Shown: positions 1-58,136, numbered from the stretch's first letter. The stretch: 64,000 nucleotides of DNA from Laetmonice hystrix (GCA_965235115.1 OZ249436.1:5644001-5708000), one strand, 5' to 3'. A program made the numbers and translations. Notes: generated from the letters alone by a model not told the origin.

Positions 1-351
1 AATAACAATAATTTTGGACTAGACGATTGCCCCCCCCCCCCCTTGAAAATCCTAGATCAGGCGCTGATACGGTCTGTGTATCTGAAGAGAGTGTGGCCCC
101 AATTACGTAAAACAGAAGCGGGGTTCTTCATGACATGTAGGCCTATATTATTTCTGGCATTCTATCACGTGTTGACAACACCTGGGGACAGAATATCTGT
201 TGGTATCGACTCAGTCAGAACACAAACGGCAAAGCTGGCCTCCGGCAACAAGTAGGATAAAGTAACGCTGCCCGTACGTCACAGACTGGTGACGTCATCA
301 GCACTTGGTAACGGCCGCCGTCGGCGCAGCACCCATACATGTGCATGGCTC

Positions 352-1556
352 GTGTTCCCTTCACTCCGTGCCGCGTTCTCTTCACTCCCTCGGCCGTGCC
401 GCGTTCCCTCCACTCCCTCGGCCGTGCCGCGTTCCCTTCACTCCCTCGGCCGTGCCGCGTTCTCTTCACTCCCTCGGCCGTGCCGCGTCCCATTCACTCC
501 CTCGGCCGTGCCGCGTTACCTTCACTCCCTCGGCCGTGCCGCGTTCCCTTCACTCTCTCGGCCGTGCCGCGTTACCTTCACTCCCTCGGCCGTGCCGCGT
601 TCCCTTCACTCCCTCGGCCGTGCCGCGTTACCTTCACTCCCTCGGCCGTGCACCGTTCCCTTCACTCTCTCGGCCGTGCCGCGTTCCCTTCACCCCCTCG
701 GCCGTGCCGCGTTCCCTTCACTCCCTCGGCCGTGCCGCGTTCCTTTCACTCCCTCGGCCGTGCCGCGTTACCTTCACTCCCTCGGCCATGCCGCGTTCCC
801 TTCACTCCCTCGGCCGTGCCACGTTCCCTTAACTCTCTCGGCCGTGCCGCGTCCCATTCACTCCCTCGGCCGTGCCACGTTCCCTTCACTCTCTCGGCCG
901 TGCCGCGTTCCCGTCACCCCCTCCGCCATGCCGCGTTCCCTTCACCCCCTCGGCCTTGCCGCGTTACCTTCACTCCCTCGGCCGTGCCGCGTTCCCTTTA
1001 CTCCCTCGGCCGTGCCGCGTTCCCGTCACCCCCTCGGCCGTGCCGCGTTCCCTTCACCCCCTCGGCCGTGCCGCGTTACCTTCACTCCCTCGGCCGTGCC
1101 GCGTTCCCTTTACCCCCTCGGCCGTGCCGCGTTCCCTTCACCCCCTCGGCCGTGCCACGTTCCCTTCACTCTCTCGGCCGTGCCGCGTTCCCGTCACCCC
1201 CTCGGCCGTGCCGCGTTCCCTTCACCCCCTCGGCCGTGCCGCGTTACCTTCACTCTCTCGGCCGTGCCGCGTTCCCGTCACCCCCTCGGCCGTGCCGCTT
1301 CCCTTCACCCCCTCGGCCGTGCCGCGTTCCCTTCACTCCCTCGGCCGTGCCGCGTTCCATTCACTCCCTCGGCCGTGCCGCGTTCCATTCACTCCCTCGG
1401 CCGTGCCGCGTTACCTTCACTCCCTCGGCCGTGCCGCGTTCCCTTCACCCCCTCGGCCGTGCCGCGTTACCTTCACTCCCTCGGCCGTGCCGCGTTACCT
1501 TCACTCCCTCGGCCGTGCCGCGTTCCCTTTACTCCCTCGGCCGTGCCGCGTTCCCT
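352..1556. repeat. Tandem minisatellite, 28-bp unit (TTCCCTTCACTCCCTCGGCCGTGCCGCG), ~43 copies
   Basis: Unit read directly. It lacks stops on the + strand, which explains the overlapping 429/441-aa ORFs in all frames. Confidence 0.97.
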
Positions 1557-2576
1557 TTTAGACTTTTATTCAGTTTGAAAAGAAGCCCCCATGCACTGTT
1601 GATTGCAAATCCACACATTTCAGGTCGAACGAAAAAAGTTAATATCCATCCTTTAATCCTTTAATGCCGATAGATCCCGCTAGAGGGAGGGACCATGAAA
1701 TATAGGCCAATTATGCATTTGTAGCCGAAAGTCCACGTGTTAGAAAATGTCACAGTGTATGATCCTTCGCCACCTGCTTGCCTTGACCGATGACATTTCT
1801 GGTGTATATCATTGTCCATTGTGTCGGTAGGGCTTTTTGTGCCTAACATAATATTTATGTGTAATGAAGTAGGATGGTCGGCGTGGCGCACAAAGTGTTG
1901 GCATTGTATATCAAGTTGTACGGAGGAAGGTGAAAGGGGATTGACGGCGCACCACATCACCCTACACCACATCAATCAACACCCTGCACCACATCAATCA
2001 ACACCTCTCTGCCGAGGAATTCGTCCGTGTTGAAGAATGGCCGGAAAGCGTTGGCGCACTTTTTATCCAATATAGAGGCACCACCTTCCAATGGCAAATC
2101 GATTCGTTAGAAGGCATTCCAGGAAGTTTTTGACAACTGAAATGTAAAGTACATGTATAAAAAAAGGTTGTTTCTGCAAGTTCTGTTGGATGAAATACGA
2201 ATTTCAATCAGAAAGTCTCACTCAGCCATGGTACCATGCATTCTCTCGTCAGATAATATCATGAAAATATTGCCGATACTCAATACAATAATGCCGAATA
2301 AAAAGTCTTTTCCTAGATTGCATTTTAGGGTCCTCATTTGGACCAACACCCCTCAACACATTTCAGCCCCCTCCATCAGTGAGCCCAGTACACATTAATG
2401 TCTGCCTTGTTTGCACCACAGCGGTTGACCGTCGGGCGACTGCTGCGGCTTACCGCCACCGATTCAACCTTCAGCCACAGTGATTGAAGAGTCGGAATGA
2501 GCTTCTGCCTTCCAATCGTCCACATTTTGTAAAGGTAAATTGTCGTTCGATTGTTCGCTCAATGACCGCCGAGTGG

Positions 2577-2888: not shown

Positions 2889-3237
2889 CTATGATAGAAA
2901 ACAATACTTCAGAGTTATTCCGCCTACGAAACGAAACCGCCTAGTGGCAGTAGAGGCTCGTGGACAACCCAGATGTGATCTTTCCTGGACGAATCGATGC
3001 CAATCTCTGCGGGATGATGAATGATCATCTTTGATGATGCCGACGAAATGATTACTTTGCTTGAGAGAGACCTTGAAATCTAGCGACACACATCGGCGAC
3101 AGGTATAGATCTAGGCTACATTTTAACATGACCTATAGACCTACACGCCCTCGTTCAATTAAGGCTTGCGTCCGGCGTGATGTAAAACGGTCTAATCTGC
3201 TATACGCACTCGGAGAAACACGTCTTCAGCCTCGGCA

Positions 3238-15390: not shown

Positions 15391-18190
15391 CTCGTAACTG
15401 ACAACCAAACCTAGACCACCTGGGGCTAACTTCCTTTGACGCGCGACATAAATTCTACGTGGTATGGAAATATACGGTAAACGCGTTGAATCGACAAGGA
15501 TAGTTTTTTATCGTTTCAATTCTCTGTCCTGTTTCAAAGTATAAAATATATATTAAACCGGGCCAATAGGCCATACAATATATATTGATAAGACCGGGCT
15601 GACATTAACAGTTGTCCAATTCGTGTAGCGTGTTGCTGCACTTCCGAGAATAGGTCCGCCTTGATTAAAACGGCAGTAGAATCTTGGTTAATCCCCGGAT
15701 TAATGTAATCAACAGCAGTTGTATAGGATAAGTCTGAATCAGTCTTTCCTCCCATAAAGGTGCATGACATGTACACCCATACATGTAGGCGATACACCGT
15801 ACGTTGACCTGGACCGATGACGTACTTCGAAAGAAGTAATGGCTTATAGTACGTCATCCAAGCGCGTGTACGTCAGTCGTAGTCATTTGTGAATATGGCT
15901 CCGGGGTAGGCCCGTTAATAGACGCTCTTTCCTTACATCATGTTCCCCTAACGTACATCTGATTGGTCGTCCGTGTAAAGGTGAAAGGGTCAGTATAGAA
16001 ATCGTTTCATTCCTCCCTTCATATCACGCAATCTGACGCTTCGATCCTTGGCCGTGAGGCCGGGAACAAATTGACAGTCACGAAGGCATTGCCCAAATGA
16101 TGGAGATTGACAAACACATAGAGGTAAGGAGATATGTACGACATACGACGTATACCTACTCGACTTTGTCATCGATCTCAGCGTCGTTCGGCCTCAGTTG
16201 TCGCATCAGATGGAGTGGCTCTAGAAGGCCGTGGCGCCACACCGCATTTGTGGCATGAGAAAGGTTACCCTTGATGGGTAATCTAATTCGAGGTCAATTG
16301 GCACGAGTCCAACCACATAGTACGTCTAGCAACAAATGGTCTCAATTACGTCGCCAATAGCTAAAACTGTAGCCGAGTGGTTGGATACAACCTTGAGGCA
16401 GTCAGGGTGTCAAATTCTAACCGTGTGCTAGACATTCCAATAAAACTATTGTCTGCCACCGTCGATTATAATCTTTCCATTGGAACACACCGACCCATCC
16501 GAGAATTTCAGGTTGAAAGTCCACCAAGAAAAGGGATTTGCGTCCTTTTCGCAGACGAGAGTTGGAATATGTTTTCCATGAACCGCCAGCCGTCGTGTTG
16601 ACTGAGAAGTACGCCTCCCGTCGACTGTCGATTAGTCGACTGTCGATTAGTTGTTGATTGCTTATCAAGTCGGCACTTGGAGACAATTCATACCGACAGC
16701 AGACAACCTCGTCGATCCAAATGTAAAGCTATAAGATGGACTACTTCCCCACCCTCTGCCACGGGTACTGAGGGATCTTTATAAACCGTGTAGTCTCGCC
16801 CACACTGCAATACTGCCTCGAAAATCTACTCGTCGACAAAAACGTACACCTCTAAATGTCACCTTTCTCGACCTATCGTGTTCGAGGCGTAATTAAGGCT
16901 AGGTAATTTGTTAATGTATTACGATATCACCTGTTTAACCTTTGGAAACAAGGACCGATAATTACGGTGTGCCAGTGGCTTATGGCTACTAAAGTATGAA
17001 AAGAAGCAGCACTAGATGTCATGTATGACACATGTAGCAACTATTGCAGTGTGTTAGTGGCAAGGTAGAGTTGGCGAGTGGCAGGTATGTGAAAGTGAGC
17101 TTTCTAAGTTGGGATTATTGTAGTTTCAGCGGAAATCTCAACGGAAAGTTCTTCATTGTAGGCGAGGAAACATTTCTGTGATGTATAGAATTATTATCAT
17201 ATCGCCCTCCTCCCCCCCCCCTCCCCCACCTTCACACAGAATGTGTTCTGCCAGTTATTGTGTTACAATCTGGAGACTAGAGCGGTGCGTCCCTTCGTGC
17301 GTGCATACGGCCGTGACATTCAACCTTCCGCCAAGGTCACTGCCCTCTTGATGAACAGCGCATAACGTCATATGAACGTCGTGAGAGTAATCGATAGCCC
17401 GTATGAACGCACAACGCAAGACAAATCGAAATGGGTTGGCAGTGTTCCCGCCTCCCTGCTGCCTCAATGCGCCTGGGCTGAGTGCAGGATAGATCCGCCG
17501 CGGACCCAAGCGACAGAAGGGTTCCTGGCTCTCTGTTATAACACCGCGCTATCCGGTTATAAAGCGGGTACTCGGAAGTGCACTTTCCCATGAAAAAGTG
17601 CGACAAGATAAAGTCGCAGACAAGTCAGATATGAAATCAACGATTTAATGTTTGTAGTGCCTAATATAATAGTTAGGCCTAGAGCAACACGGGCGGATCC
17701 ACATTTTTTCTAACTTGCTAAACCATCTTGGTTGGTGCACTGAACTAGGGAGCCGGGGGGGGGGGGGGTCCTACAAAGTTGTGATTATAGCTGATGGCTG
17801 AAACATTCCTCCTGATCCGTCAATGAGCAACATGACGGATACTTCTGACTTCCCCTAGTTTGTCGCATCCTAACAACATTACTGTCCAATAAATCTAAAG
17901 CTAAATCGCTGCTGAAGCAGTATTTATAACTGTGTTTTTATTTCAATCATTTATAACAGTAAACTTTTACGTACAATCCGCGGGTATTATGCCATTATCC
18001 CGACAATAAAAGGTATACAGAAGACTCAGTGCAATTATTTTTCTATCTTCTTACAGTAAACGGTAACATGCATGATATTTTTTCATGTTTCCTTAACTTT
18101 AACAAAAATGGCATATCTTCTGCCCTTGGGGCCGCTTCCATCACTGCCGGGGGCCTCGGGTCTGCCCTTGGGGCCGCTTCTATCACTGCC

Positions 18191-21761: not shown

Positions 21762-21806
<45 letters not shown>

Positions 21807-21846: not shown

Positions 21847-21881
<35 letters not shown>

Positions 21882-36106: not shown

Positions 36107-36967
36107 TTAAAATTATCCAATACTCCGTACGCAAAAGTTTCACTGTTCCAGCATATTTTAGTGTGTATTTATAGATTATGGATAAATGAAGTAGGACTGT
36201 ACCATATGCGTACATATATTTGAAGGAACATTGACAAAATGACATGTATGGAATATCAATTAGGGTCAGAAATCGTATCAGAACCGGGCACGTTTCAGAC
36301 TTTCTATACCAGATTGGAAATGTTAATGTAACGATCTGGCTATTAACCAGCCTTAGTGAGACGGGCCCCTGGCAAGTTAAATTCAGACTTTCTATACCAG
36401 ATTGGAAATAGTGCCCCTCCCCCATAAAGTGGTAGGCCTAATTCATCAAACACATTATGAAGGGCCCGGGTTTGAAGTGCAGTAATATCTTTATTGCATC
36501 TTAAATATTTAATGTTTGAAGTTTAATATTTTCCCCCTGTCTGCTTCGATTCATTGTTGCCATTCGATTATAGAGTATGAATTCGTTATAGCCTAGGCAT
36601 AGTCGTGAAACGCTGCGGCAATATATGGCAATAATTCAATGGTGATAGGCCTATATCGTACGCTGCATGGACCTGTCCTCACGTAATCATGAAAGGACAT
36701 GCAGCATACATCCGAACATCCCACCGTGTAGCCTATAAAATAGTTGACCCATTTATCACCATAGACTTTCACGTTTAGGCCTATTGCTTCGCATATTAAT
36801 TTTTCTCACAAATAACGATTGCGGAGCTCTTTCATAAAGAGGATCCCTTGGTCGGATTGAATTTTAACATATTGTTTATCCCCATACAGAGGGTTGTCAG
36901 CCGTCCTGGTTAAGTCGTATAGAGTCTAGTCCTTCCCATACAGAGGGTTGTCAGCCATCCTGGTTAA

Positions 36968-37896: not shown

Positions 37897-39971
37897 AGCC
37901 GAAGCCACTCAAACATGAGTCGACTGCATCAAGGTAAACAAATCCCCACGCCCACATCCATTAGCTTGACCTCCATCAGGCTATTATTGGAAATAACCCA
38001 CCCAGCTTTTGCAACCTCTGGCTTGATCAGCCAAAGGACGACGCGCAAACAGTAGTGTAGAATGGGTTCCTCTCAAAACACAAACTGCACCGGGATCTAT
38101 GTGAGCTATTAACAATGACCTTGTAAACTCTTTCAGGTCATTATTTTCTGTACAAACCTTTTCATGGACTGGTACACATAGGGGCCAATACTTGTCAATA
38201 AATCATCAATCAGACAGTCATGTTGCACTTTTACTTTGTTGGGTAAAACATATCCCTATCCTCCTGACAAACAGTTCATAGCAGCAGTTCATAGCAGGTG
38301 GATCGATAAAAACTGAGTCTCAGCCTTGGTGAAAGGGTGGTCTCGTCGGCCAGGTCACCCACGCCTCGACCTCAGTGGTTAATTTAGCAACAGAAAATGT
38401 TCTGACGACATTTGTGTTTTAAAGGGCGTATTATAGATATCTTAATGTCATTAATTATAATCTCACTGTCCACGATGTTGCATAATCCACAAAGAGAAAA
38501 ACTCCTGCAAATTTAAGCATATTTTTATATAGTCAATAACCCTAAGTATAGGCCTGCAACCACATTATACGTGGGTGTCGACCATCTGCTCTCCTCCCCT
38601 TTCATCTCATCACCCCTCTAGTCTTTCCATCATTACCGCAACAAGGAATTTCTTTAGTCTTACAGATCTAACACCTTTCATAACTAAACTTAAAGGAATC
38701 ATGTCAATTATTTCATATAGATTTTACAAACTGGCGAAAATACTGCTTGTATATAGTCTGGTAATTATGTTCCATAGCACTGCCTACTTGCCTGTTTGGA
38801 TTTCGTGATTATTTTTTTAAAATATTTAAAAACCAGCAAATTTGGAATGACGCGCGTCTTTTTCTAGACCTGCAGCCCACCTACGCGATAGAGTTTTAGC
38901 CGGGCGACTTTACACCCTTTTCACAGAACGCGAGACTATTGACGCAATCACGTGATCATCTCACCCGTTGCAACGCTATGCCTGCAGGTCAGACATTCCC
39001 GATGGCGAAAGGCAGCGTTGTTTTTGAGTGTTCTCGACAAGAAAGTGAAATGTGAAGGTGACAGTGCATTTCGCTGCTGTCTGTTTACAATACATAGGCC
39101 TAATGTATATTAAAGCTAGGAAGTATCCTCGGGACAGAAGCTGCATAGATTTTGACGAGGTAAGCGTGAAAGCAGGCCGAACTGGCTTCCAGGAACGCTC
39201 AACCAGGGTGCCATGATTCCTTTAATAAGGTTACACTGAACCAAAGTGTTCTTGGTATGAACGTTCAGCCAACGTTGATTCTATGTGCAGCAATAACGTT
39301 GACGTCTATAGCTGGGGGGAAGTCATAGCATGTTATCTAAACAAAGGTTGGGTCAGGATTTAAACAAAGAGCTGGGAAAAACATGTGATAATTTTGCAGT
39401 CAGCATACTATACTGACATTATTGATGACGCCCCCCCCCCCCCAACCACCCACCCACTCACACACCCCGCACATTTACACACATACATGTACGATGATGT
39501 GTTGTTTTCTTGCTTTGTGCTTAACTTCTTGGCTAATATTTTAAAAAGGTTTCATTTTAAAAATCCTGAACTTAGCTACAACTTAAATTTTCTTTGTCAA
39601 AATTCAGAGTAGTCTACTTGCAGTAACGTATTTAGAATGGCTTCCAGCACGATTTGCGCCAATATATAGGCCTAATGGAAGCAATATGCGGGTGTAAGGA
39701 CGACCGGGAACTGTTGTTTGTATTGGGTCCCACTGCAAAACGGGCCCCACATATGATGGAATATATAGGTCTATAATATGTAAACATTTAATGTTCCCAC
39801 ATTTCATACAATACATGTACGGTATATTAGCATTTCGGAAGGTGCGGTATTCCAACAGAGAAAACTGTTGATTGATAGATTTATCTAAGGGGGGTTCAGT
39901 CGGAGTAGCTATAGCCAATAGGAAGCTGATGTAAAGATTGGCCTTTGACCTTTGTCCGTGGATCCGCTCCT

Positions 39972-40401: not shown

Positions 40402-41838
40402 GCAAACCGTGCAAAGTTGATTCAGTGCATTTCAACCATTCCGAAGAAAGACGTAATCTCGGCCTAATGGTGGAAAATGAGATTCACTGCCTCTCTATCT
40501 TACGGCCCATTCATATAATGTCCCCGGCAGACATTATAATATAACTCGGTGATTATATAGCCTAGGCTATCGTTAACTGTCGAGGGTGTAACCCAATGAT
40601 ATTGTCAGTCAAGGAAACTGCATCCCCGAGTCTGGAGACGACCATTGTCTTACCCAGCTTTGATGTCTGCCAGGTCGGCTGTTGTTGGAGGCGAGGAGCT
40701 CCATTCTACACGAACAAGTTTTCCTTGACAAGTCTTCATTGACGAGTGATGTGCCCGCGTACTTGGCGTTAAAAAGCTAGCACACTCAGCTTTCCGATGA
40801 CGAGTGGGAATTGACAAGTGGCACTCATTCTGACTTCAACAGACATCTCACCAACACGATGTACAAACTGGACAATAGCAACCGTTCTTACCCCCATAAA
40901 GTTTCAACATAACGATATTCAGTGGCGGATCCAAAGGAGGGGCTAAGGGGGCTCCACCCCCCACCCCCCATTCTGGACGATGGTATTCCTAGGCGTACTT
41001 TCTTTCATCATCCAATTATGACAATATTTATCATATGTTTTAGGCCTAGGCCTAATAATAAATCATAATAAAACCGATCATAATAAAACTCATGCTTACT
41101 TACTTGCAAGAGCCTTTGTCGTCAGTGCGAGTTCGTTCACCGTCCATCAGTGGTCTTTAATGTTCCTTTTAGCTTCACTCAACAAACCACACGTGTGTAT
41201 TTCGTACCTATTACAAGATACACAAAGCATGTGTAGCAGTTTCGGTAGTATATAGGTCAGAAGTACGACTCCCTCTTCCAGTCGGAACACGGTATAGGAC
41301 GCGTTGTCGTTGAGAGGATAGTGTACATGCGTGGCATATCATCGTGTGGAAGTTGGCCGGGCAGTGTTGGTGCCGCACTGGCCTGGCTGAGGACGACTGT
41401 GGTGGTGATCGTATGGGAGGCTGGGCGGGGACTGGTAGGTAGGAAGGCAGGCCAGCTATCTTCACCAACACCAAGCAACAGCCGTGCCGCCTCATCTAGT
41501 GGGGCCGGGCAGGGACGCGTCCACTGGGTCCAAACCGCCACTGGCTCATATCAAGGAGCTATAGGCGCCCATTACGAACAGAACGGGTGAGATTGAGAAG
41601 ACGAGGTGGTGCGATCAATACATACAAAGATCCAACCAGGTATGCCATCCCACCTGCAGGTAACAACACTCCTAAGGTGAGAGAGGATGTACAGAACATG
41701 GAGTTTGACTCCATCGTTATGTCTGTGTTTCCTATGGAGAAGGGGAGGGGGGGTCCAGAAAAAGACGCGTGTGCTATATAGGGGACCTATAGCTAGAGAT
41801 AACGAATGCTCTGCGTCGAGTAGGGTTGGCACCATTCC

Positions 41839-42125
41839 CAGTGGCGTATCCAGAAATGGGTTGGGGGTTGGGGGGTCCTAAGTTTAGGTAGGCCTACTTC
41901 AGTGATGGCCTTAGGCCATGCTCCTCTGGGAAATTAAATAAAGACATATAAAAATACAATCTCAGAACGTCTTGTTTGGAAATATGAGGATTTCCTTTGG
42001 CTAAAATAATGCACTTTTTACACTCCTGACGTCCTGTTTTCCAAAAATGTCCTCAATATCATAATTTTTTTCAGGGGGGGGGGGGGATTCCGGGATACGT
42101 GGAAACCCCTCTGGATACGCCACTG
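41839..42125. mobile_element. hAT-like MITE (CAGTGGCGTATCCAG TIR)
   Basis: Perfect TIR CAGTGGCGTATCCAGA...TCTGGATACGCCACTG with flanks ATTCC/ATTTC. Related single ends occur near 50-66, 19898, 40920 and 47405-47422. Confidence 0.85.
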
Positions 42126-42827
42126 ATTTCATAAACATGAAAATAACTATCAAAGATTCCAAGAGAACTGCTGTGAAGGAAGTTCCGAGGAAAAGGTCAA
42201 ATGTCACATTGGTTCGCGGCAGGACCACCAATTCCCTGCAGCTGTGAACGAAATGAGATGGAGACGAACAGTTATTTGGAGCTACATTATACCGCACTGC
42301 CAACCCAGAAAATAATAAATACTCCGCGAAAACACTTATTTATTATTCAACGCTGTGTCGGAACTAACCAAGCAACGCTTTATGGCGTCCATTATTACGG
42401 ATGCAGTTTATAGATTGCAGTAGTTCATTTCACCACCAGTTATTATGTAACGAAATGCAGCAACTATTTGTAGGTCTAATCATCGTCCTCTCCAGGCATA
42501 ACTGTGGAGGTGTTCAGATTTTCCAGTTTGATTTCGAAAGTTTGCAGTAGAACCAATGACCAATAAATAGGTAGTAGGCCTACTAAATGGCGTGAACGAT
42601 TGGGGTATGCTACAAATGAACTTTTAAGTGATCTGTAGGCCTAATAGTTATTTTACCTGTGCTGCAAGCTGAAAAATTGCAACCACAGCAAATGGCGTGA
42701 GTACTGGGGCCATTACCAAAGACAAAGGTTAGGGTTAGGGTTTGACTGAGTGTCGTCCCAGTTGCCAGCCTATCACAGAGGCAAGGTTTAATAGGGTTAT
42801 TTGTTTGTTAGCTCCAGAAGGCGGTCC

Positions 42828-43747: not shown

Positions 43748-44845
43748 GGTGCCTATTAACGTTTGCTACTCATAAACAGATTCAACAATGCCGCTAAACC
43801 GCGAATTCGGAAACCATTCGATTTCTCTCTGCTGACGTTTGTTAGGGCCCTACAATTAGCTGAGCATTACAGGCATATTTAAGAATCATTCTTCACCGTT
43901 TAAAGCAATTAGCGAGTGTCTGTCCTTTCAATGACTCCACAATGCAGATATATAGATCTAGGCCTATGGGCTGTTAGGTTAGAATAGATAAGGCCTTAGA
44001 CTACATACATCAATAAATGTAGCCTATACCCACAGAAATGGACAAATCTAATGAAATTCTTCATTCCAGTTGCCTGTTGTCGCTATGAAGCGAACGGCTC
44101 ATGGCTGGTTGTTGACTTGGCATTGACTTAACGAGCCAATGAATTCATCGGGCGATTTGGAGTCATTGAAACGAGAGATAGACTCTACTCGCTGGTTGCT
44201 TTAAGAGAATGACTCACGCCAATTGGTTCTCTTTGATACTTTATACAAACTTCAGTCAAGAAACGTGGAGCTAGAAATCCATCTCGGTATACCCTAGTCC
44301 AGCTACTCCTCCCTGTCCCAGCTCCAACAACTATAATAATATGACTAGATCAACAGGCTTTTTCAAACGGCCCTCTCGTTAGTCGGAGTTTCGTTTGCAA
44401 GGTTGATTTTCAGCAGCACTACAGGTGAAGCGCCGTCTGGCGGGAAAAGCTGACACCTTCAGTACGTTGTTCGGCTTCGCATTCATGAGCATTGTGACAT
44501 GGAAGGGAAGCCTCTCAGGTTTATTTTTTCTCGAATCTTTTAAAGAAATTAGGTAAAATTTCTCTCAAATAATTGTTGTTAGAGTTCGTTCCTTGTCCCA
44601 TAAACTTTAACCACGCATTAGCAAACATGAAAGTAGGGTGCCTATTCTTTTAAAATATAGGTTTCACAGTGGCTAGTAGGCCTCCATAATGTCATATAAT
44701 TTATTACGTCTACGCCACCATTCTATTATAGGCTTAAACAGAACTGCGCCAGAGCCCTGCCTTACACGTAGGCCTTAAATCCCACTGGCCGTTCACCAAA
44801 ACTTCTCGGCTTTTTCATACTGTTTAATCCCGTTTGTCACTGCCA

Positions 44846-45035: not shown

Positions 45036-45994
45036 CGATACCAAACGACACATATTTCTATTTGTATTCAGAGGAATGGCTAGGCGAAACAGGTAATAAT
45101 TATCTTTGATGATCCGTCACACGCCTCATTAACTGGTCAGTTTATAAATCAAGTTGACAGCTGAAAAACGTTTTAATGTCCATTTAAATGGAAGCTGCTT
45201 AACAATGAGTCTCCTTTGGCCATGAATTTTATGATCCACATGGGATGCAATAAAAACTGGCTGTATATCACGTATTAGGCCTAAACAAACATTACACATG
45301 CAGTTACAACAACACCAAACCTCCACGCTATACACTTGTATATGAACACGATTCAAAATCTCATTTTCAATTCGAAAGCTATATCTCCTTCCATTTATGA
45401 ATATTTAATTCTTGAATCTTTAATTTAATCGGAGCAATTATTTATCGTTCGTTGCAGTTACAACATTTCAGAATAGGTCTAGAGGACCTTTACCTCTGTT
45501 TCGAGCGTTTGAAAAAGGCTGAATCATTTATCTCGTGAAAAAGTTGTAGCACATCTACAGAATGTCTATTTGGCAAACAATCGATCCGCCGCTCTAACGT
45601 CTTGTCGTGTAGTTTATGGGAACAAAAGTACAATAACCATGCAGACAATGGAGCTCTATCAGTGACATCTTTCCCAGAGCCCTCCCAGCTCCCATATATG
45701 GGCATTCCGTATAGAAGGGCTCGTCAGTCTGGCCATTGTATTCCCTCCTCACTTGACTAAAAAACAACGTTTCAGATTGCAGGTAAATGTCTCTTTCCCC
45801 TCCCCACAGACTCGTGTATTTACCGTGTAAGTCTATGTTATACGGATCTGTAATGTGACTAATCTTGACGTCATTGACCTGGAGAACATATGCAAACTAA
45901 AAATCATAGACTATTATACTGGTTAGTAGCTTACTAGTGTTTCTAAACGTATGTTGACATCGTTCTGTCAGTATATACATGCAAGTTTTCATGC

Positions 45995-47307: not shown

Positions 47308-47475
47308 CTGAAACATAGAAGTTCAGAGGAAGATTCAACATTCACGAGGGGGGGGGGGCTAGACATGGGGGGGGGGGGGTAGTCTACGGTCTGAGATGCA
47401 ACCTCCCTTGATCCACCGCTGCAGTTTTTGACCTAGGCGTGTATTAGGCCTATAATGATTCTGCCAGGAAACTTG

Positions 47476-49335: not shown

Positions 49336-51743
49336 GGGCCCGTTTCATAACTCGTTAAGAAAATGCGTTAATTAGTACGCGCTCGTTTATATACTAGCGC
49401 GAAGTTTAACGCATTTTGCGTAACGCCGTTTCATAACTCGTAAAATGATCGCGCGTAATAAGATGTACGTTGGGTTCGTTAATATACGCATTCGTGATTT
49501 AACGCTGAAAAGGCCGCTTGTGCTTGCGAAAAATATTAAATTTAGAGATCATACCAGGGCTGCGCCACCAATCACCACCTTGCGGTTCGATTGCGTACTA
49601 CAAGATTTATCAGAAGATTATCATCTTAAGTAGGCCACAATCATCCCCAAAATGTTCTAGTGTGAAGAGGTGAGTATAATGCTTAGTAGTGCAATCTCGT
49701 ACATTTCGTCAGAGGACGCGGATGTGAAAGGAGAGGAGCTTTCTTTCCAGAATAGGCCTAATATATTGTCATCAGGTTTTAGTCATGCGCCCCCAATAGT
49801 CATCTCTGAATCTGTGTTATCATAATATTTTGATTACTGTTATTTTGTAGCGCCAACGCTTACGGGCCAAGTTTTGGTGGAAGAGGATTCAGAAACACAG
49901 GGGCTCACCTCCGTTGTGCCAGGTGTGGGAACCGAGGGGTAGGGGCAAGGTGGCGATTCCCCAACTTTGTATTGGCGGGAATAATATCGTTTCGCCCCAA
50001 TCTAATTAACATTAGTTATTGGTATTCCGCATCTATATCGGTTGTGCCAGTGCTGTCTCCGCTCCATACCTATATAGTATGGAACACATGCGATGTAAAC
50101 TGCCAAGACTCCCATTCATAGATTACTGTTCCCGTAGTTGTGTTAGCTCAATGGTGAAAGTGTCAAGACACATTGCACAAGGTATTTGGGTTCGAACCCT
50201 GTTCGAACTATCGTTTTTCTTTGCTCTCATAGCCACATCCGGGTATTTTGTATCATGTGACCCTTTTTCCTGACATATCATTAAACCGCGCATTGGGCAG
50301 ACTAACGTCAACTAATGCAGACCGTACTGTTTATAATCTACGGACCCACACAGAAGTAAGTTTATATATTCGGTTTATCTCTTTCTCATGTATTTTCGTA
50401 TTGGGTCTAGTCAATTTATCAAATGTTATTACGGGTTATATTTATTGTATATTCGTCGGTTTCAGTTTTCGAACCTACAACTGCTATACTCATACCTACA
50501 ACTACAACTGCTACAACGAGATATGACACGGTTGTACCGATGAACGAATAAAGGAGTGTCAAAACAATGATGTGGTCCATTCTTAAATAGACGCAACTAC
50601 ATGCGACATAACTAAGCTCTCATTTTAATTAGATTGAGTTTCGCCCCCTCCCTATTATTTGCCAGTTATATTTTAATAACAGAGATATGCCACTGCCAGG
50701 AAACCAAAAATGGATTCCAAGCATCACAATAATTATGATGTCCTATTCAGTGGCAGCAGTAAGGAGACAAAGTTTACTTGTTGGTGCATATTTGATGAAG
50801 TCACTGCAGTAATGCGGGGGGGTCCAGGATTTTGTAACGGGGGGTTCAGAGGTAAAATTTGCTAAGGGGGAGGGGTCAGCACGGTCAATTCAGATGTTCT
50901 ATCGGGGAAAAAGAGACATTGGTTGACAAGGGGGCTTTGAAACCCCCACCCCACCCCCCTGGCGCTTTGCCGGGCCATGCCCCAGTCTCCCTCCCCCTCC
51001 AATGAAAATATGGTTCCCACGCCTATGGTCCCTATCCTAAAAGGAAACGAACCAAGCGTTGCTAAAATTTAAATACAAATATATGTGTTGGTGACACGAA
51101 CTGTATGTAGTGTGTTCATTGCAAGAAAATATATTATCTAAATGTTTGAATGACAGGTTCTCTGGTATGAAAACCGCGATGATTCATTGTCTGCCCCCTG
51201 TCTCCTTGTTGAGCCTCTGCTAAATGACGGCTAGATAGAGAGGGGGAGGCATGTATAATTATTGGTATCCCGCGATTAATTGCAAAATTGTGAAGACATG
51301 TTATTGCCAATACAATCCTATACTAGATGTCCCCGGGTCACTCTGGTACCCCCATGCACTGGCATCAAGACATCTGTGAATAATGAGAAATATTTCATGT
51401 CATATAATATATGACATAAAATCTTCATTATCCACAATATCAGGATTTTGGATGGCATTACGTTGGTATTGCACTGTCCTAGCCGTCATATTTGTTGATG
51501 TGCTCAGTGTAAATAATGTGTTAATTAACGATACTATCGTTAATTAGCGATAAATCAGTTAGCGAAGACTTAATCCGCACCTTTTTCATCCGCGCTAAAA
51601 AAATCCATTTAACGCGGAAATAACGCAAAATTTCGCAAGTAAACGCCCGCTTTACTAGTTATGCAACGGTTTAACGCGTTTTTCGTCGATTAACCGCGTT
51701 TTAGACCTTAGCGAGCGCATCAACTTAGTTATGAAACGGGCCC
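49336..51743 (-). mobile_element. Decayed PIF/Harbinger DNA transposon (2.4 kb) with nested MITE fragments
   Basis: TIR GGGCCCGTTTCATAACT at both ends, CTG TSD (49333-49335 and 51744-51746), and an internal transposase remnant. Confidence 0.88.
51258..51373 (-). pseudogene. Frameshifted Harbinger (HARBI1-like DDE) transposase C-terminal remnant
   Basis: After acceptor TTCACAG the minus strand reads CLDASAWGYQSDPGTSS, then a frameshift, then RIVLAITCLHNFAINRGIP. This resembles the Harbinger RFRCLD.SGG.L...P....I..AC..LHN motif. Confidence 0.7.
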
Positions 51744-53447
51744 CTGATGCGTAGACACCCGGAGATCAACGCGAGTTGTGACATCAAAGAACTTTAAGAT
51801 CTGCCCAGCTCAGGATGGTGACGATTTCTTGCCAACAGTTCTTACTTACATAATTCGGTCAGGAGATCAACTTGTTCATCCTCTGTCGCTATTATTAGGA
51901 GTGTGTAGCCTTCGTGTATCCCCTTATCACGCCAGAGGTCAGGGTTATTTGTTGTGCATTTGATCTTAGTTTATCCGCTTATTTGACATTGCACATAATT
52001 GCTCCCCTCCACCTAGCACGAAGTATCTACGACAGCGCCAGCCATGGTCACGTGTGTAGAATTCTGTGTATGAAATCTCTAAGATAACATCTTGATTCTT
52101 TTACAGCGTTGCTGCTGTACTGATTGCTAACAGATAAGGTTAACCATTGACCAGCATAGTTATAGTGTTCTGTTGTTGAACGGCCTTCTGAAACCTTACC
52201 GGGCTCGTAAATACGAGAAAATCCCACTTACCTCGGCGCCGTACCTGGCGGAAATATTTATATTGACCACTCTCAGGATTAGATCATTTCACAAGCTGAC
52301 AATGATGGCTGTTCTATTGACATTACCTACTCCTAACACGAATATTGGACAGGGGTCAGTTCCGTAAACCTGGTTAAATTGACGCGCACAAAAATACAAG
52401 GTTCAAAACGGGATCGGAGACCATGAGAGGCAAATTTAACATGTGCTGTGTTTACTACAATTCCATGGAAAAGGAAAACTCTTAGTCCTCCACATGACCA
52501 CCATTTCCTTACACACAGCTTTGCAGCCCCCCCCCCCCCCCCCCCCCCCCCAACATATCGTTGGATGCGGCCGGATGATCACCCTGGCACTTGGAACACT
52601 TCACAGGGTTCTGGCAGGTGGCGCTGCAAGTTACCGAAACAAACCTATGGCCGCATCACAGGATATGTCGAGAAGGGTGCAAAGCTGTATGTAAAGAAAT
52701 GACATGACATGAACTCTTTTAGTATTCTGTAAAGTCGGTATTTATTGATTGTTGTCTTATTCAATGGAAGTGTTATCCGCCGTGGTCTGGGATTCTTCAC
52801 TGCCTTCTCCTTGCGTCAAACTTGAAGCGGGTGCGTTTAACTGTTTGGAGAAGGTATTTGTATGAACCAGGGAGAGTTAGGTGTAAACTATATACAGGGC
52901 GTCTCTGAAAAAAAAACCGAAATCCTAAAATATCATCATTTCTTGAGAAAATGATACTAACTAGATATAGTGTATATCTGATAGGCCAAAACCTCCTCTG
53001 TCCTATCCCTATTCCTATCCATGACCTTAACCCGAACCCATGCCCAAACATTTCGTGGGGAAGTTATCATGGGGGAATAACCATTGGCTGCACTGGGATT
53101 GTGGAAAGAAAACAATAATAATTCGGTCAACTGTGACTCGATTGATGAATTTGACATACTATTGGGAAGGTTTTGGCCTATCATGCAGATACACTTGGTA
53201 ACTGATATGTAGTTAGTATATTTTAGGATTTCAGTTTTTCTGACACGTATAAACGAACAACTCGCGGTGTCTTTAACGATCGTACTTAGCTATAGCGAAC
53301 ACTGCATGGTTAGAATCGAGGTTTCCTATTTCACTTTTTCAATTGCCTGTCTTGTATATTTAATAATTATTAATAGTAAATAACTAAGTGCAAACTCGGG
53401 AGGGCTGAATGTTACCGACTCGTTTACTTTTGTTAGTTTGATCTGTG

Positions 53448-53693
53448 GGGCCGGTTTTTTTTGTTTACTTTTCCACCGTGAGCAAGGGTGAGCTGAGCTG
53501 AGCAAGGGTGAACAAAAGCTCATGCTCACCGTTTTGCTCACTGTTTTCGTTTTTTGGGGTGTTTTTCCGTGAGCTTGCTCACCATGAGCACGTCTCATGG
53601 AAAAAAGCAACCCATAAAAACGCGAAAACGGTGAGAATGAGCTCATGCTCACCCTTGCTCACGGTGGAAAAGTAAACCAAAAAAAAACGGGCC
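53448..53693. mobile_element. Palindromic MITE, probably Harbinger-type (GTG 3-bp TSD)
   Basis: Long TIR GG(G/C)CCG..TTTT..TTTACTTTTCCACCGTGAGCAAGGGTGAGC at both ends, with GTG on both flanks. Confidence 0.85.
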
Positions 53694-54128
53694 GTGGGAC
53701 ACTTATGCCAGTAGATTTCACCTTTTGTTTGTGACCTGTTTTGAAAGAGTAGTACATTTGATATTTTAATTGACGTTTTAATCCTTAAAACAATCATATA
53801 TGTCAAGTAGGCCTAGTGGGTATTACGGATTGGCTTTGGGACAAATATTTCTCTGGAATGTCATTTCGAGGGAATGACATCCATGCATGGTTCATATAGC
53901 ACTGAACCATCTGGAAATAGTTCTGGTCCGATAATAGATTCCCAAGTTGTTTGCCATCATCTGTATACAAAAATGTTAAATACATAGAATTACTGGATGA
54001 AATTAGTATCAGTGACAATGTCTCGTGTCAAGGTCAGTTATTTTTTATAAAGCGCTCAGATAGCAGGAACTTTCGGTTGTCCACAAAAAAGGAAACGGCC
54101 GAAGGACTGTGTATGGCTCGACGTACAT

Positions 54129-55382: not shown

Positions 55383-55482
55383 ATGCATTTCCCAACTGTA
55401 GAGAGGATGATGAAAACGCAGAGCGTCATAGTGATCGCCTCGTGGCTGGTAGCTGCCATCTGTATAACGTTGTGTCATGCAG
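55383..55482 (+). CDS. Putative first coding exon (signal peptide) of a secreted or membrane protein; downstream exons not identified
   Basis: (MHFPTVER)MMKTQSVIVIASWLVAAICITLCHA followed by G|GTATGT phase-1 donor at 55483. In-frame TGA upstream. C-H-A fits the -3/-1 signal-peptidase rule. Confidence 0.65.
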
Positions 55483-58136
55483 GTATGTATAGGCCTACAT
55501 TATATCCCCCATCCCTTTCATATGTATCATAATGTAGGTCAATGCCTATAATGATTCGTTAGTAGGCATAGGCCTACAGAGATTCAGCAATGGTGCCAAC
55601 CACAGTCTTAACCAAGCTATCACTATCGAATTCACCTTAGTGGTGTTCAATCGGGCGTGGGACCCTCTCCATCACAGTCCATGTGACAGTAACACTGTGT
55701 TTATCAAGTCCGGACCAGCAAATATTGTTTGGAGTATAGGTATATTATACTTATAAGTCATGAGTTTCGTCTCTAAACGATGCATTTAGATTTACGGAGG
55801 CCTATAGGCCTAATTACACTATTTTCATTTGGCCCACTTCTTGTTGCTATAGTTGGGTTCATATTAGGCCTACTATACGATTGCTTCCTGTTTAATTGTT
55901 ATTTCCCGTTATATTTAATCCATGAGAAGCCCCAGACGGGGGAGATCTAGCCGTCTTCTATCCTGTATCATGGTGTATCCTGGGAGGGGCGATAGTGATC
56001 GAACGTGTCGGTCGTTGTACTGTTGAATGGTTGAACGTTTGGTCTGATGCGTGCCGATACGACAAAAGCAATCAATACGTACATACGCAGCAAACGATCT
56101 CTTCATAACAACGCCTGATTCATTTGACCTTAACCTCGGAAGTGAATCTGAGCGCAACCGTAGGCCTAGACGTATATCCCGGGATATAGTCCACCTGACC
56201 AAAATAGGAGTAGTGGCTTCCTTCGGAGGTTTTCTTTCCGTAGATGGTATCGGCGTTCTGGATCGAATCCGAATCAGAGAATCAGGTAGGCCTATACAGA
56301 AAGAGTTATTTTTTCGGGACGAGCTTTTGCCAAATTTCCCCGTCCTTTTTCAGAATTGCCATATACGTTGTAAATGATAAGGCCTGTCTGTACAATCGAG
56401 GTTTTGCGTCAGTGATGGGCCAAGAACATTCTCTGTGAAATCAGTGGTCAATCTCTATTCCTGCATGGAGCCGTACTTCTGGTGACCACCTTTGATGAAT
56501 GCTACTGTTTCTGGGCGAAAAGCAACAACGGATGGCCTTCCGACAAGGTCGAGTCCTTCGACTCTTGGCTGCAATGAATAGGAATTGAACACCTAATCCT
56601 GCACTTAGCCGAGCCCGTCTTCAGCTAGGGTAGGGTTACTGAAGTCTTAGATAGCATTGGAACAACCAATCAAAACTTTATTAATGGTTATCCCTAATAT
56701 CCGTGCTCTTCATTTATAATTATTGAATATTATTCGTAGACATTCTTGATTTAAACAAAATGATCGCTGGGTAATGACACGATTAAAAAGGTAAGTTGAA
56801 ATGAGCAAGAGATTGCTGAAAGTCTTAAATTGGGGCTGTGGCATTTAAAGCTATCCTTATACTAGTGCCGCTCCACATGTTGATGAGCTTAACCGACTGG
56901 AAAGACAGCATGTGATGCCAAAACATACAGCTCTTCTAGAAGAAAGGCTCACAGCAAACACAAGTATTACGACTGCTGAGATCGGCTATGGCCGTAAACA
57001 TCCACGTTTTACGACTAATTTCCGGACTATAATTCCTTGCTCCTGAAAGCTTCCTACATTTGATGGGTGACTTCTGTGAGAATTTAACATCTGGCTATGT
57101 AGCCGTCATTATTGGTGCCTAATGCTCGTCAGACAAGATAATACAAACTGTACGACAGTTACCAAAGAAAACATAATTTTCGTTGTCTCTCTCGCCTGAC
57201 TATATTTGGTAAAACCACTTCACACATTAACGTAATTAATGTAAGAGCCACGAGGACTTGTATCACATTACTACAGTCAGTGAAAAGGTTGTTTGGAACA
57301 AAGGATGGCTTAGGAATAAAAGTAAATACTGACAAATGTCATGTCATAAATTACAAGATAATGTTGTTAATTGTTGATGTCATATCCGAACAGAGAGAAA
57401 TTGATACCTGCCATAAAAATATAGAGATAAATAGATTGTCTTCCCTAACTATCGAGTACGTGTATAGACTGCCAAATAAGGAATCAAACGCAAAGTCGTA
57501 GATTGTCTCCTGCTTGAAGCCACTGGTGATGAATTTTCGTCCGGTGACATTGACATGGTAATATTGTATTGATACCTCTTTTTGTTTGTTTGACTGTTTG
57601 CTTTTGGCACTTGTTGCTTTTTTCAACCCCCTTTGTAGCGCAAATAAGAACAGTGTTAAGGCTTAGCGGAGCTCTGAATTGTGATTTGAGCTTCGAATTG
57701 AAGAAAGCCTTTGATTACAATAACGACAGAAGAAATTCTTTCTCTCAACAGGAAAACGTTCATAGTGCCACGTCGGACCAGCGTTGGTCGGAGATTGCGA
57801 AATACTGGCAAAGAATTGTGGCAATTCGCACACCTCTTACAGCATATTGATCGATAAAATGGGATCTGAAGCACAGCTCCAGGAGCGAGAAAACTATCCA
57901 TTCCCACTCGACACAGAAAGCAATTGTTACTTAGACGTAACTGATGGAACATTGTAAATTATTGCCCTGGGCCGTCTGTCGTTAGGCTTGGTTAAGGACG
58001 CAGGGCCGTGGAGGAACAATTATCAGGGACGCGTCACTTCAGTAATGGATATTAACGTAAATCTAGGACAAAACACGAATTGGTCCAATTATACTGTACT
58101 CTACGCGCAAGTAACAAGCAAAAATGTACGGACATA

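What the first reader, a model, noticed from the sequence alone, without database searches (positions are those of the whole stretch)
138..56294. Large excess of TAGGCCTA and related TA-NNNN-TA palindromes: a possible genome-wide record of transposon excision footprints
Seen: TAGGCCTA occurs at least 25 times outside tandem arrays (138, 17674, 27801, 36433, 36646, 36776, 39095, 39667, 41041, 41047, 41889, 42575, 42636, 43959, 45276, 47445, 49753, 53808, 55490, 55569, 55805, 55865, 56161, 56287 among them). About 1 copy is expected for a given 8-mer in 64 kb at uniform composition. Sister motifs include TACATGTA (2150, 8588, 15780, 39484, 39812), TAGATCTA (3106, 31517, 43953), TAGGTCTA/TAGACCTA and 7-mers TAGCCTA/TAGGCTA. 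Compound forms share a TA: TAGGCCTAGGCCTA (41041), TAGATCTAGGCCTA (43953), TAGATCTAGGCTA (3106). Established: Tc1/mariner elements duplicate TA and leave TA + terminal bases + TA on excision (Tc1: TACATA, TATGTA, TACATGTA). Inference: TAGGCCTA is the footprint of a very active TA-targeting element with GG...CC termini, TAGATCTA of one with GA...TC termini, and compounds are re-insertions into the new TA. No such intact donor element is visible in this window.
Basis: partly seen in the sequence, partly recalled or inferred. Interest (0 to 1): 0.8.

Follow-up and report, generated by a model that had tools for sequence, protein, structure and literature searches.

The report
Transposon excision scars at TA sites
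The eight-letter palindrome TAGGCCTA litters this invertebrate genome because six letters (GGCC plus a second TA) have been inserted again and again at plain TA sites, most likely as scars left each time a cut-and-paste jumping gene cut itself out, although the gene that made most of the scars was not found.

Summary
TAGGCCTA occurs 24 times in the window, against about 0.7 expected, and 168,757 times in the 627-Mb genome. The flanks are all different, so this is not a repeat family.

- At both window sites that lie in repeats (39095, 49753), 10 of 10 other copies fetched have a plain TA.
- A scan of one repeat family that did not name the motif found 6 copies with net +6 bases in a 30-base stretch. 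All 6 are TA-N4/5-TA insertions at a TA, and 3 are exact TAGGCCTA at three different TAs.
- Of all 256 TA-NNNN-TA words, the three most enriched are the palindromes TAGGCCTA, TAGATCTA and TACATGTA.

Mixed forms are rare, so the two halves of a scar come from matching ends, as expected of terminal inverted repeats.

Intact TA-targeting elements with CA...TG ends exist, one Tc1-like and three pogo-like. No TA-flanked element with GG...CC ends was found.

Verdict: Tc1/mariner-type excision footprints on an unusual scale, with the main donor unidentified. This scan has noted similar scars in other genomes.

The parts
138..145 (.). TAGGCCTA scar
   Evidence: unique flanks
17674..17681 (.). TAGGCCTA scar
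27801..27808 (.). TAGGCCTA scar
36433..36440 (.). TAGGCCTA scar
36646..36653 (.). TAGGCCTA scar
36776..36783 (.). TAGGCCTA scar
39095..39102 (.). TAGGCCTA scar inside a TTAA-flanked MITE. The other copies have a plain TA here.
   Evidence: 10 of 10 fetched copies have TA. 62 copies with standard spacing. Contigs lacking these 6 bases (table 4).
39667..39674 (.). TAGGCCTA scar
41041..41054 (.). Compound scar TAGGCCTAGGCCTA: two scars sharing one TA
41889..41896 (.). TAGGCCTA scar
42575..42582 (.). TAGGCCTA scar
42636..42643 (.). TAGGCCTA scar
43953..43966 (.). Compound scar TAGATCTAGGCCTA inside a TTAA-flanked MITE (43901-44203)
45276..45283 (.). TAGGCCTA scar
47445..47452 (.). TAGGCCTA scar
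49753..49760 (.). TAGGCCTA scar inside a dispersed repeat. The other copies have a plain TA here.
   Evidence: 10 of 10 fetched copies have TA. 27 of 39 other copies span 385 bases for the 391-base query. A contig lacking these 6 bases (table 4).
53808..53815 (.). TAGGCCTA scar
55490..55497 (.). TAGGCCTA scar, first of a cluster of six within 805 bases
55569..55576 (.). TAGGCCTA scar (cluster)
55805..55812 (.). TAGGCCTA scar (cluster); a decayed copy, AGGCCTA, lies directly before it
55865..55872 (.). TAGGCCTA scar (cluster)
56161..56168 (.). TAGGCCTA scar (cluster)
56287..56294 (.). TAGGCCTA scar (cluster)
3106..3118 (.). Compound TAGATCTAGGCTA: a GA/TC-class scar plus a GG/CC-class scar one base short
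31517..31524 (.). TAGATCTA, sister scar of the GA...TC class
2150..2157 (.). TACATGTA, sister scar of the CA...TG class. The others are at 8588, 15780, 39484 and 39812.
38690..39225 (.). Host repeat of the 39095 scar: a MITE (38694-39221) flanked by TTAA on both sides. It is not the donor.
   Evidence: contigs diverge after 39225 (table 7)
53445..53696 (.). High-copy MITE with GG...CC ends (53448-53693) and a 3-bp duplication (GTG here, CAG/CTG in 10 other copies). Considered as donor and rejected.

Best explanation
TAGGCCTA sites are excision footprints of TA-targeting cut-and-paste DNA transposons of the Tc1/mariner/pogo type whose ends read 5'-GG...CC-3'.

Proposed sequence of events:
1. 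The element inserts at a TA and duplicates it.
2. On excision the transposase cuts the non-transferred strand about two bases inside each end, so each flank keeps TA plus a 2-base overhang.
3. End joining keeps both overhangs and gives TA-GG-CC-TA, a net gain of six bases.

TAGATCTA and TACATGTA are the same kind of scar from elements with GA...TC and CA...TG ends. Compound forms are new insertions into a TA of an older scar. The scars then decay by point mutation.

Shown here: the scars arise as 6-bp insertions at a single TA; they arise at many different TAs in dead repeat copies; the two halves are symmetric; variants one base longer or shorter occur; and intact CA...TG donors are present.

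Inferred: the cutting geometry, and the existence of a GG...CC donor, present or past.
For: (1) Origin by insertion. At window sites 49753 and 39095, 10 of 10 fetched copies of the same repeats have a plain TA and are otherwise alignable. Contigs of the sequencing runs also lack exactly these 6 bases. These are 2 of the 12 best-supported indels listed, and the only ones longer than 1 base.

(2) A scan that does not name the motif. In one repeat family, between two exact anchors:
- 62 copies have the standard 30-base spacing.
- 6 copies have +6, and all 6 are TA-N4/5-TA insertions at a TA: TAGGCCTA three times at three different TAs, then TAGACCTA, TAGGCCCTA and TACACGTA once each.
- 28 copies have +1 to +30. 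Reading the printed strings by eye, 15 of them carry TA-Nx-TA insertions at a consensus TA and 8 are of the GG/CC class. Five are exact TAGGCCTA. One copy carries TAGCCTA plus TAGATCTA.

(3) Of 256 TA-NNNN-TA words, the three with the highest observed/expected ratio are palindromes, at 17.1, 5.6 and 3.8. The highest non-palindrome is 3.0. GGCC flanked by any other repeated dinucleotide is not enriched.

(4) Mixed forms such as TAGGTCTA number 17 against 6.1 expected. That is far below what independent additions at the two ends would give, so the two ends are matched, as in inverted repeats (my arithmetic).

(5) Variants expected from end joining are enriched: TAGG(G/C)CCTA, 13 against 1.6; TAGGGCCCTA and TAGGCGCCTA, 2 sites each.

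(6) Donors of the CA...TG class exist: a Tc1-like element TA|CAGTTG...CAACTG|TA with an intact 340-aa transposase, and pogo-like elements TA|CAGTGG....

(7) Literature, passages read: Tc1/mariner transposases cut the non-transferred strand inside the element, and end joining leaves the first or last 2-4 bases between two TAs (PMC6943129). ZB leaves footprints of 0-3 bp and Passer leaves 0-4 bp (PMC7913693, PMC9976928).
Against: No TA-flanked inverted-repeat element with GG...CC ends was found in the window, in about 0.27 Mb of other sampled sequence, or at the 15 transposase loci fetched.
- The four elements with clear TA-flanked ends all have CA...TG ends, yet CA-class scars are rarer than GG-class scars.
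- The one TA-flanked GGCC...GGCC pair in the window (52982-53180) is a one-off: its 12-base end occurs 90 times genome-wide and is never paired elsewhere among the places listed.
- The abundant GG...CC-ended MITE makes 3-bp CWG duplications, not TA.
- Flank preferences at -6 to -1 are not significant with 65 sites. Only an adjacent TA is more common, at 20 of 65 sites against 17.8% of all TAs.
- The canonical 3-base footprints TACAGTA/TACTGTA are not among the top 12 TA-NNN-TA words by enrichment.
- The sequencing runs come from one sample, which may be the source of the assembly, so they are not independent of it.
Confidence: 0.7

Rival explanations
1. A repair or insertion process at TA that is not driven by a transposon: a break at TA whose filled-in ends receive short added bases before joining, for example G-biased untemplated addition on both 3' ends, which would read GG...CC.
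For: No GG...CC donor was found. The inserted core is very short and G+C-only in the main class.
Against: The additions on the two sides are matched: GG with CC, GA with TC, CA with TG. Mixed words stay near background. The length is sharply 2+2, with 73 sites, against 13 for the 5-base core and 2 each for two 6-base cores. GGCC is enriched only between two TAs. A CA...TG class that matches real elements in the genome behaves the same way.
Confidence: 0.12
2. The same kind of scar, made by programmed or somatic excision. Elements would be present in the germline, removed from TA sites in the sequenced tissue by a domesticated transposase, and so absent from the assembly.
For: It would explain the absence of donors from the assembly. 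No call gives direct evidence for it.
Against: About as many decayed one-mismatch copies as intact ones are seen: 152 against 80 expected, beside 65 intact. Mirrored scars lie in an inverted duplication. Both show that the scars are inherited and old, not made anew in each body. No loose ends at scar sites appear among the best-supported rows, but most rows were not shown.
Confidence: 0.04
3. TAGGCCTA is a selected functional site, for example the binding site of a dimeric factor, kept or multiplied by selection.
For: It is a perfect palindrome, it is clustered (variance/mean 2.5 in 5-kb bins), and it lies in non-coding DNA.
Against: It arises by insertion at arbitrary TAs inside dead repeat copies. 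It decays freely and has no conserved flanks. Two other palindromes share the same TA frame.
Confidence: 0.03
4. An artefact or a hidden repeat: part of a dispersed repeat or tandem array, or an assembly or adapter artefact.
For: Some genome-wide copies do sit in a satellite, spaced about 835-865 bases apart near the start of contig 1, and in an inverted duplication.
Against: All 24 window sites, and 72 of 73 sites in 295 kb, have distinct flanks. The same letters are found in contigs built from the runs. The motif sits at different TAs in different repeat copies.
Confidence: 0.01

Closest known systems
Excision footprints of Tc1/mariner elements (Tc1/Tc3 TACATGTA type, recalled; Sleeping Beauty TACAGTA/TACTGTA, PMC6943129, passages read)
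   Same: A duplicated TA encloses the few terminal bases of the element. It arises by net insertion at a single TA, it is palindromic when both ends are kept, and it has one-base variants. The CA...TG class here matches real Tc1-like and pogo-like elements in the genome.
   Different: The main class has GG...CC, which matches no element found here and no Tc1/mariner end that I can recall. The scale is unusual: 168,757 copies, about 1 Mb of inserted letters, and the most over-represented 8-mer. The 3-base Sleeping Beauty type is not among the top 12 enriched TA-NNN-TA words here.
Minos 6-bp footprint (recalled from Arca et al. 1997, not read here)
   Same: A net 6-bp scar made of a duplicated TA plus four terminal bases.
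   Different: As I recall it, the Minos scar is the four bases of one end or of the other, and so is not palindromic. Here the core is palindromic. That fits either 2+2 joining or self-complementary 4-base GGCC ends, and I could not tell the two apart.
PHIS superfamily elements (PIF/Harbinger, NuwaI; PMC4482050, passages read)
   Same: Their ends in this genome read GG(G/C)CC...GG(G/C)CC, the only GG...CC ends seen here.
   Different: They duplicate 3 bases, CWG here and TWA for Harbinger. The scars sit at TA without the T or A neighbours that TWA would need, and CWG-GGCC-CWG words are not enriched.
Flank-hairpin footprints of hAT, Transib/RAG and Mutator elements
   Same: Short palindromic insertions at excision sites.
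   Different: Those palindromes copy the flanking host bases and so differ from site to site. Here the inserted letters are constant whatever the flank.

Membership tests
Tc1/mariner/pogo excision footprint | The scar sits at a site whose empty state is a single TA, with the TA duplicated on both sides | tested here: met
   10 of 10 copies have TA at each of two sites. 6 of 6 copies with +6 spacing are of this form. 15 of 28 copies with insertions are of this form (read by eye).
Tc1/mariner/pogo excision footprint | The inner bases equal the first and last 2-4 bases of a TA-flanked inverted-repeat element in the genome | tested here: inconclusive
   Met for CA...TG: a Tc1-like and three pogo-like elements. 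Not met for GG...CC: no donor in about 0.33 Mb or at the 15 transposase loci fetched. For GA...TC there is one 100-bp TA-flanked foldback of unknown copy number.
Tc1/mariner/pogo excision footprint | The two halves are reverse complements of each other, and mixed halves are rare | tested here: met
   The top 3 of 256 TA-NNNN-TA words are palindromes, and mixed words stay at or below 3.0 times expected.
Tc1/mariner/pogo excision footprint | A spectrum of imprecise variants around the canonical scar | tested here: met
   TAGG(G/C)CCTA 8.4 times expected, TAGGCTA/TAGCCTA 1.9 times. TAGCCTA, TACCTA and TAGGCCCTA are seen at TAs in repeat copies.
Tc1/mariner/pogo excision footprint | A filled allele, with the element still in place, at a site that is a scar or a TA elsewhere | not testable with these tools
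   Needs other individuals or species. Only runs from one sample were on offer, and read laying allows one call.
PIF/Harbinger or NuwaI (PHIS) footprint | 3-bp duplication, TWA or CWG, on both sides of the scar | tested here: not met
   T at -1 (equivalently A at +1) in 17% of flanks after symmetrising. Scars are seen at GTAT, ATAC and GTAT sites. No enrichment of 3-bp-repeat + GGCC words of those types.
hAT/Transib-type hairpin footprint | The inserted bases are a palindromic copy of the adjoining host bases | tested here: not met
   The same GGCC is inserted next to unrelated flanks.
Dispersed repeat or tandem array | Shared sequence beyond the motif | tested here: not met
   24 of 24 window sites have unrelated flanks. 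144 of 146 both-strand occurrences have distinct 12-base flanks.

The most novel reading that the evidence does not exclude
The GG...CC scars are the fossil record of a TA-targeting cut-and-paste family of a kind not yet described. One possibility is a PHIS-like transposase that makes 2-bp TA duplications, since PHIS elements are the only ones here with GG...CC ends. Another is a Tc1/mariner branch with self-complementary GGCC ends that rejoin cleanly. Such a family would have visited more than 100,000 sites while keeping a copy number so low that it escapes sampling, or it may now be extinct. Excision scars would then be a leading source of short insertions in this lineage.
Probability: 0.2. 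Interest if true: 0.8.

Novelty: new member of a known kind. Interest (0 to 1): 0.6.

Why it matters
Excision footprints are textbook at single loci, but they are rarely thought of as a force that shapes genome composition.

- Here one scar type is the most over-represented 8-mer of a 627-Mb animal genome. It occurs about once per 3.7 kb and adds about 1 Mb of inserted letters.
- In one repeat family these scars account for every net +6 insertion found.
- This gives a countable and datable record of how often cut-and-paste elements left their sites. That quantity is normally invisible, because only insertions are annotated.
- It lets excision rate, local hopping and repair fidelity be measured from sequence alone.
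- It also points to a very successful element with GG...CC ends that nobody has yet seen in this genome.

There is a practical lesson too: such motifs can be mistaken for regulatory palindromes in motif searches.

Tried and rejected
(1) The TA-flanked GGCC...GGCC pair at window 52982-53180 as donor. Its interior belongs to another repeat whose copies lack those ends. Its 12-base end is not a family terminus: 90 genome-wide against 24 for the control, with no other paired occurrence listed.

(2) 'TA-flanked' inverted repeats at 38691, 35574 and 43901. These are in fact TTAA-flanked MITEs (table 7).

(3) L017 139-2714 and L026 1304-1409. Their inverted repeats run on beyond the TA, so the TA|GG is not an end.

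(4) The high-copy GG...CC MITE at 53448-53693. It has 3-bp CAG/CTG duplications in 10 of 10 other copies.

(5) ISL2EU as donor. Its duplication is AT, not TA (PMC4482050, passages).

(6) Transposase loci.
- DDE_3 gave 57 matches, Transposase_1 gave 7 (2 to 6 of them broken or short) and DDE_1 gave 150.
- 15 loci were fetched. Ends were read at four of them (L053, L058/59, L072, L074).
- L054 and L075 have ends that are not simple TA|GG.
- Nine gave no inverted repeats in the stretch fetched (L055, L056/57, L060/61, L073, L077-L080). That may only mean the ends lie further out.

(7) A stretch around a scar cluster near the start of contig 1 (L076). No donor was found, and half of that cluster is an inverted duplication.

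(8) Literature. 'TAGGCCTA' alone returned 283 papers, of which 20 were listed. With 'transpos' it returned 52, of which 25 were listed. All listed papers used it in primers or as an unrelated site. 'Excision footprint' + mariner + palindrom + genome-wide gave nothing on genome-wide scar counts among the 15 papers listed. 'LanceleTn' gave 0 papers.

(9) Flank preference. It is not significant with 65 sites, so I make no claim of a Tc1-like target consensus.

(10) Naming the organism from the GRIN_C gene. The closest named relative is an annelid protein at 33% identity, which says only that this is an invertebrate, perhaps a spiralian.


Full report
**1. The observation.**

Dinucleotide-preserving shuffles give a mean of 0.8 and never more than 5.

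With the 23 larger tandem arrays masked, Markov backgrounds of order 0 to 3 predict 0.5-0.75 copies. Order 4 gives 2.8 and order 5 gives 11.3. At those orders the background 5- and 6-mers are themselves dominated by the motif.

The enriched unit is the whole 8-mer: 48 of the 55 AGGCCTA words counted on both strands lie inside a full palindrome. The 40 bases on either side of each site are unrelated to one another, so this is not a dispersed repeat.

TACATGTA is at all 5 listed places. TAGATCTA is at the 3 listed places plus a fourth inside a tandem array at 63303. The three compound forms are real.

**2. The genome.**

The window lies in a 627-Mb assembly of 35 contigs. A single-exon ORF at 11636-13504 carries a GRIN_C domain. 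Its only named relative is an annelid protein at 33% identity. The organism is therefore an invertebrate animal, perhaps a spiralian, and I did not try to name it further.

Genome-wide there are 168,757 TAGGCCTA sites. The reversed word has 3,469, but it contains CpG and is a weak control. About 9,600 would be expected at uniform composition (my arithmetic). Part of the total sits in a satellite near the start of contig 1.

In 20 arbitrarily placed 10-kb stretches there are 41 sites against 3.0 expected. It is the commonest palindromic 8-mer there, and the density extrapolates to about 129,000 sites.

Sites are clustered. The variance/mean ratio is 2.5 in 5-kb bins, and the count shows no correlation with local TA count. 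One cluster turned out to be partly an inverted duplication carrying mirrored scars.

**3. How the motif arises.**

Contigs from three sequencing runs were laid on 20 kb of the window. The runs come from one sample, which may be the source of the assembly. Among the 12 best-supported indels, the only two longer than one base are 6-base omissions exactly at 39095 and 49753.

I then located other copies of the two host repeats and fetched about 100 bases around the site from ten copies of each.
- At 49753, 10 of 10 copies read ...CCAGAA-TA-ATATATTG..., where the window reads ...CCAGAA-TAGGCCTA-ATATATTG....
- At 39095, 10 of 10 copies read ...ACAATACA-TA-ATGTATATT....
- In one search, 27 of 39 other copies span 385 bases for the 391-base query.

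The motif is therefore a derived, clean 6-base insertion at a single TA. It is not a product of point mutation and not a conserved element.

**4. A scan that does not name the motif.**

Using two exact anchors that enclose a 30-base, TA-rich stretch of the TTAA-flanked MITE hosting site 39095, I asked the genome for copies by spacing alone.
- 62 copies have the standard spacing of 30.
- 6 copies have spacing 36. All six are TA-N4/5-TA insertions at a TA of the consensus. Three are TAGGCCTA, at three different TAs. The others are TAGACCTA, TAGGCCCTA (with a 1-base loss elsewhere) and TACACGTA, which could also be a small duplication.
- 28 copies have spacing 31 to 60.

I read the 28 printed strings by eye against the modal sequence.
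- 15 copies (rows 1-5, 7, 10, 15, 16, 19, 21, 22, 24-26) carry at least one TA-Nx-TA insertion at a consensus TA.
- 8 of these are of the GG/CC class (rows 1, 2, 4, 7, 10, 15, 19, 24).
- 5 are exact TAGGCCTA, at consensus positions 5-6 (twice), 10-11 and 28-29 (twice).
- Row 19 carries TAGCCTA at one TA and TAGATCTA at another. The sister motif therefore arises in the same way.
- Other cores seen once are CCGG, CTGT, GACTCTC and GACCTC. TTA appears in two identical copies. A bare CC (TACCTA) lies next to a full scar.
- The other 13 copies show TA-repeat gain, tandem duplications, 1-2-base indels or unclear changes. Row 14 contains TAGG but could not be parsed.

Exact TAGGCCTA therefore hits about 5 of 630 TAs (0.8%) in this family, whose copies are about 93-94% identical to the window copy. 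In the 20 arbitrarily placed 10-kb stretches the figure is 41 of 12,979 TAs, or 0.3%.

**5. Symmetry.**

Among all 256 TA-NNNN-TA words, counted with distinct flanks only, the three highest observed/expected ratios belong to palindromes: TAGGCCTA 17.1, TAGATCTA 5.6 and TACATGTA 3.8. The highest non-palindrome reaches 3.0. Several of the next words are one-step mutants of TAGGCCTA. GGCC between any other repeated dinucleotide or trinucleotide is not enriched in this way.

If the two sides received their two bases independently, mixed words such as TAGGTCTA (GG with TC) should be about as common as the pure classes. In fact that pair numbers 17 against 6.1 expected, and the GG/TG and GA/TG mixtures do not reach the top 25 (my arithmetic). 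The two halves are therefore matched, which is what the two ends of one inverted-repeat element would give. This argues against untemplated addition.

Longer variants fit joining with one base more. TAGG(G/C)CCTA numbers 13 against 1.6 expected. TAGGGCCCTA and TAGGCGCCTA occur at 2 sites each. A or T in the middle is at background.

Decay is visible. The 24 one-mismatch words sum to 152 sites against 80 expected, beside 65 intact sites. The process has therefore run over a long time. Scars inside repeat copies that are 94-98% identical to their relatives show that it has also run fairly recently.

**6. Donors.**

TA-targeting autonomous elements do exist here.
- A Tc1-like element reads TA|CAGTTGTGCCC...GGGCACAACTG|TA and is 1,678 bp long. 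Its intact 340-aa ORF has a Sleeping Beauty-type HTH, HTH_Tnp_Tc3_2 and DDE_3 domains. Four loci in the genome give near-identical scores.
- pogo-like transposases are numerous: 150 DDE_1 matches, many with long open frames. The three whose ends I could read all begin TA|CAGTGG.

These elements account for the CA...TG class, TACATGTA. For GA...TC I found only one 100-bp TA-flanked foldback, of unknown copy number.

For GG...CC I found nothing.
- Scans for inverted repeats in the window and in about 0.27 Mb of other sequence found none.
- The 15 transposase loci fetched gave none.
- A scar cluster gave none.
- The single TA-flanked GGCC...GGCC pair in the window is a one-off.
- The only abundant elements with GG...CC ends are MITEs with more than 1,200 first-look candidates. 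Their ends read GG(G/C)CCGG, and they make 3-bp CAG/CTG duplications in 10 of 10 copies examined. This is the NuwaI type of the PHIS superfamily as described in PMC4482050.
- Harbinger-type TWA duplications are excluded by the flanks. ISL2EU duplicates AT.

**7. Mechanism and confidence.**

The published chemistry fits (passages read in PMC6943129, PMC7913693 and PMC9976928). Tc1/mariner transposases cut the non-transferred strand a few bases inside the element. End joining then leaves the first or last 2-4 element bases between the two TAs.

Keeping two bases from each end of a GG...CC element gives TA-GG-CC-TA. I recall that the Tc1/Tc3 scar TACATGTA is the direct analogue.

An alternative geometry is a 4-base stagger on ends reading GGCC, which is self-complementary and would religate cleanly. 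That would explain the uniformity of the scar. I could not tell the two geometries apart.

I put 0.7 on the transposon-footprint reading. The main reservation is the missing donor, together with the odd fact that the class with visible donors (CA...TG) has left fewer scars than the class without.

**8. Comparison and novelty.**

The kind of thing is known. What is unusual is the scale, the dominance of a single scar, and an end sequence that matches no element found here. My literature searches found no paper treating TAGGCCTA, or genome-wide scar counts, in this way. That covers only the held library and the rows listed.

Earlier notes of this scan report similar TA-bounded scars in a diatom, a freshwater alga and another animal-like window. 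These are unchecked AI notes, taken as leads only. One of them gave me the reference PMC6943129, which I then read.

I rate this a new member of a known kind, with interest 0.6.

Noticed in passing
window 366-1557, 3239-6717, 22663-25808 and about 20 more: The window is unusually rich in minisatellites: 67 TRF rows and about 17 kb in larger arrays. They include a 3.5-kb array of a 12-base C-rich unit and a 3.1-kb array of a 77-base unit.
   Followed up: no
window 11636-13504 (-): A single-exon 622-aa ORF with a GRIN_C domain (G protein-regulated inducer of neurite outgrowth). The closest relatives are 37-39% identical, and the only named one is from an annelid.
   Followed up: partly
window 45995-47341 (-): A 448-aa ORF with no Pfam match. 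Its C-terminal part is coded by a 39-base tandem repeat (46033-46275), which gives six copies of a 13-residue unit.
   Followed up: no
window 38690-39225, 35574-36109, 43901-44203: MITEs of about 300-530 bp flanked by TTAA, with ends AGG.../AGC... (piggyBac- or Kolobok-like target). The first has at least 802 first-look candidates genome-wide.
   Followed up: partly
window 53445-53696; L062-L071: A MITE of about 245 bp with ends GG(G/C)CCGG and 3-bp CAG/CTG duplications (NuwaI type of the PHIS superfamily). It has at least 1,210 first-look candidates and the highest contig depth in the laid stretch.
   Followed up: yes
L053 163-1840 (contig 8): A Tc1-like element with perfect 34-base inverted ends and an uninterrupted 340-aa transposase whose HTH matches the Sleeping Beauty type. 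Three more loci have near-identical DDE_3 scores.
   Followed up: partly
G000, one search list: There are at least 150 DDE_1 (pogo-like) matches. Many have open frames of 440-580 aa, in groups with identical scores. One group (L055) has an intron-like interruption and no inverted repeats nearby, so it may be a host gene family derived from pogo.
   Followed up: partly
L054 (contig 1), 571-2040: A 490-aa ORF with a partial DDE_3 match, in an element whose inverted ends read ...TATA(C/G)TCTGTCCGCGC. Its target duplication is unclear (TA, TATA or GA). At least five copies have the same open frame.
   Followed up: no
L076 5544-5630 and 7277-7752: An interstitial run of TTAGGG repeats, and a 36-base tandem array in which every unit carries TAGATCTA. 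Raw counts of that sister motif therefore need tandem arrays removed.
   Followed up: partly
G000 contig 1, 19.5-90 kb: A satellite of alternating periods of about 835 and 865 bases, in which every unit holds one TAGGCCTA. It inflates the genome-wide count a little.
   Followed up: no
window, whole: TGACGTCA (the CRE-like palindrome) occurs 16 times against 2.8 expected. Runs of 8 or more G or C are about 12 times over expectation.
   Followed up: no
window 52982-53180: A single 195-bp stretch bounded by TA and by a 12-of-14 inverted repeat beginning GGCC. Its interior belongs to a different, common repeat. It is unexplained, possibly chance.
   Followed up: yes
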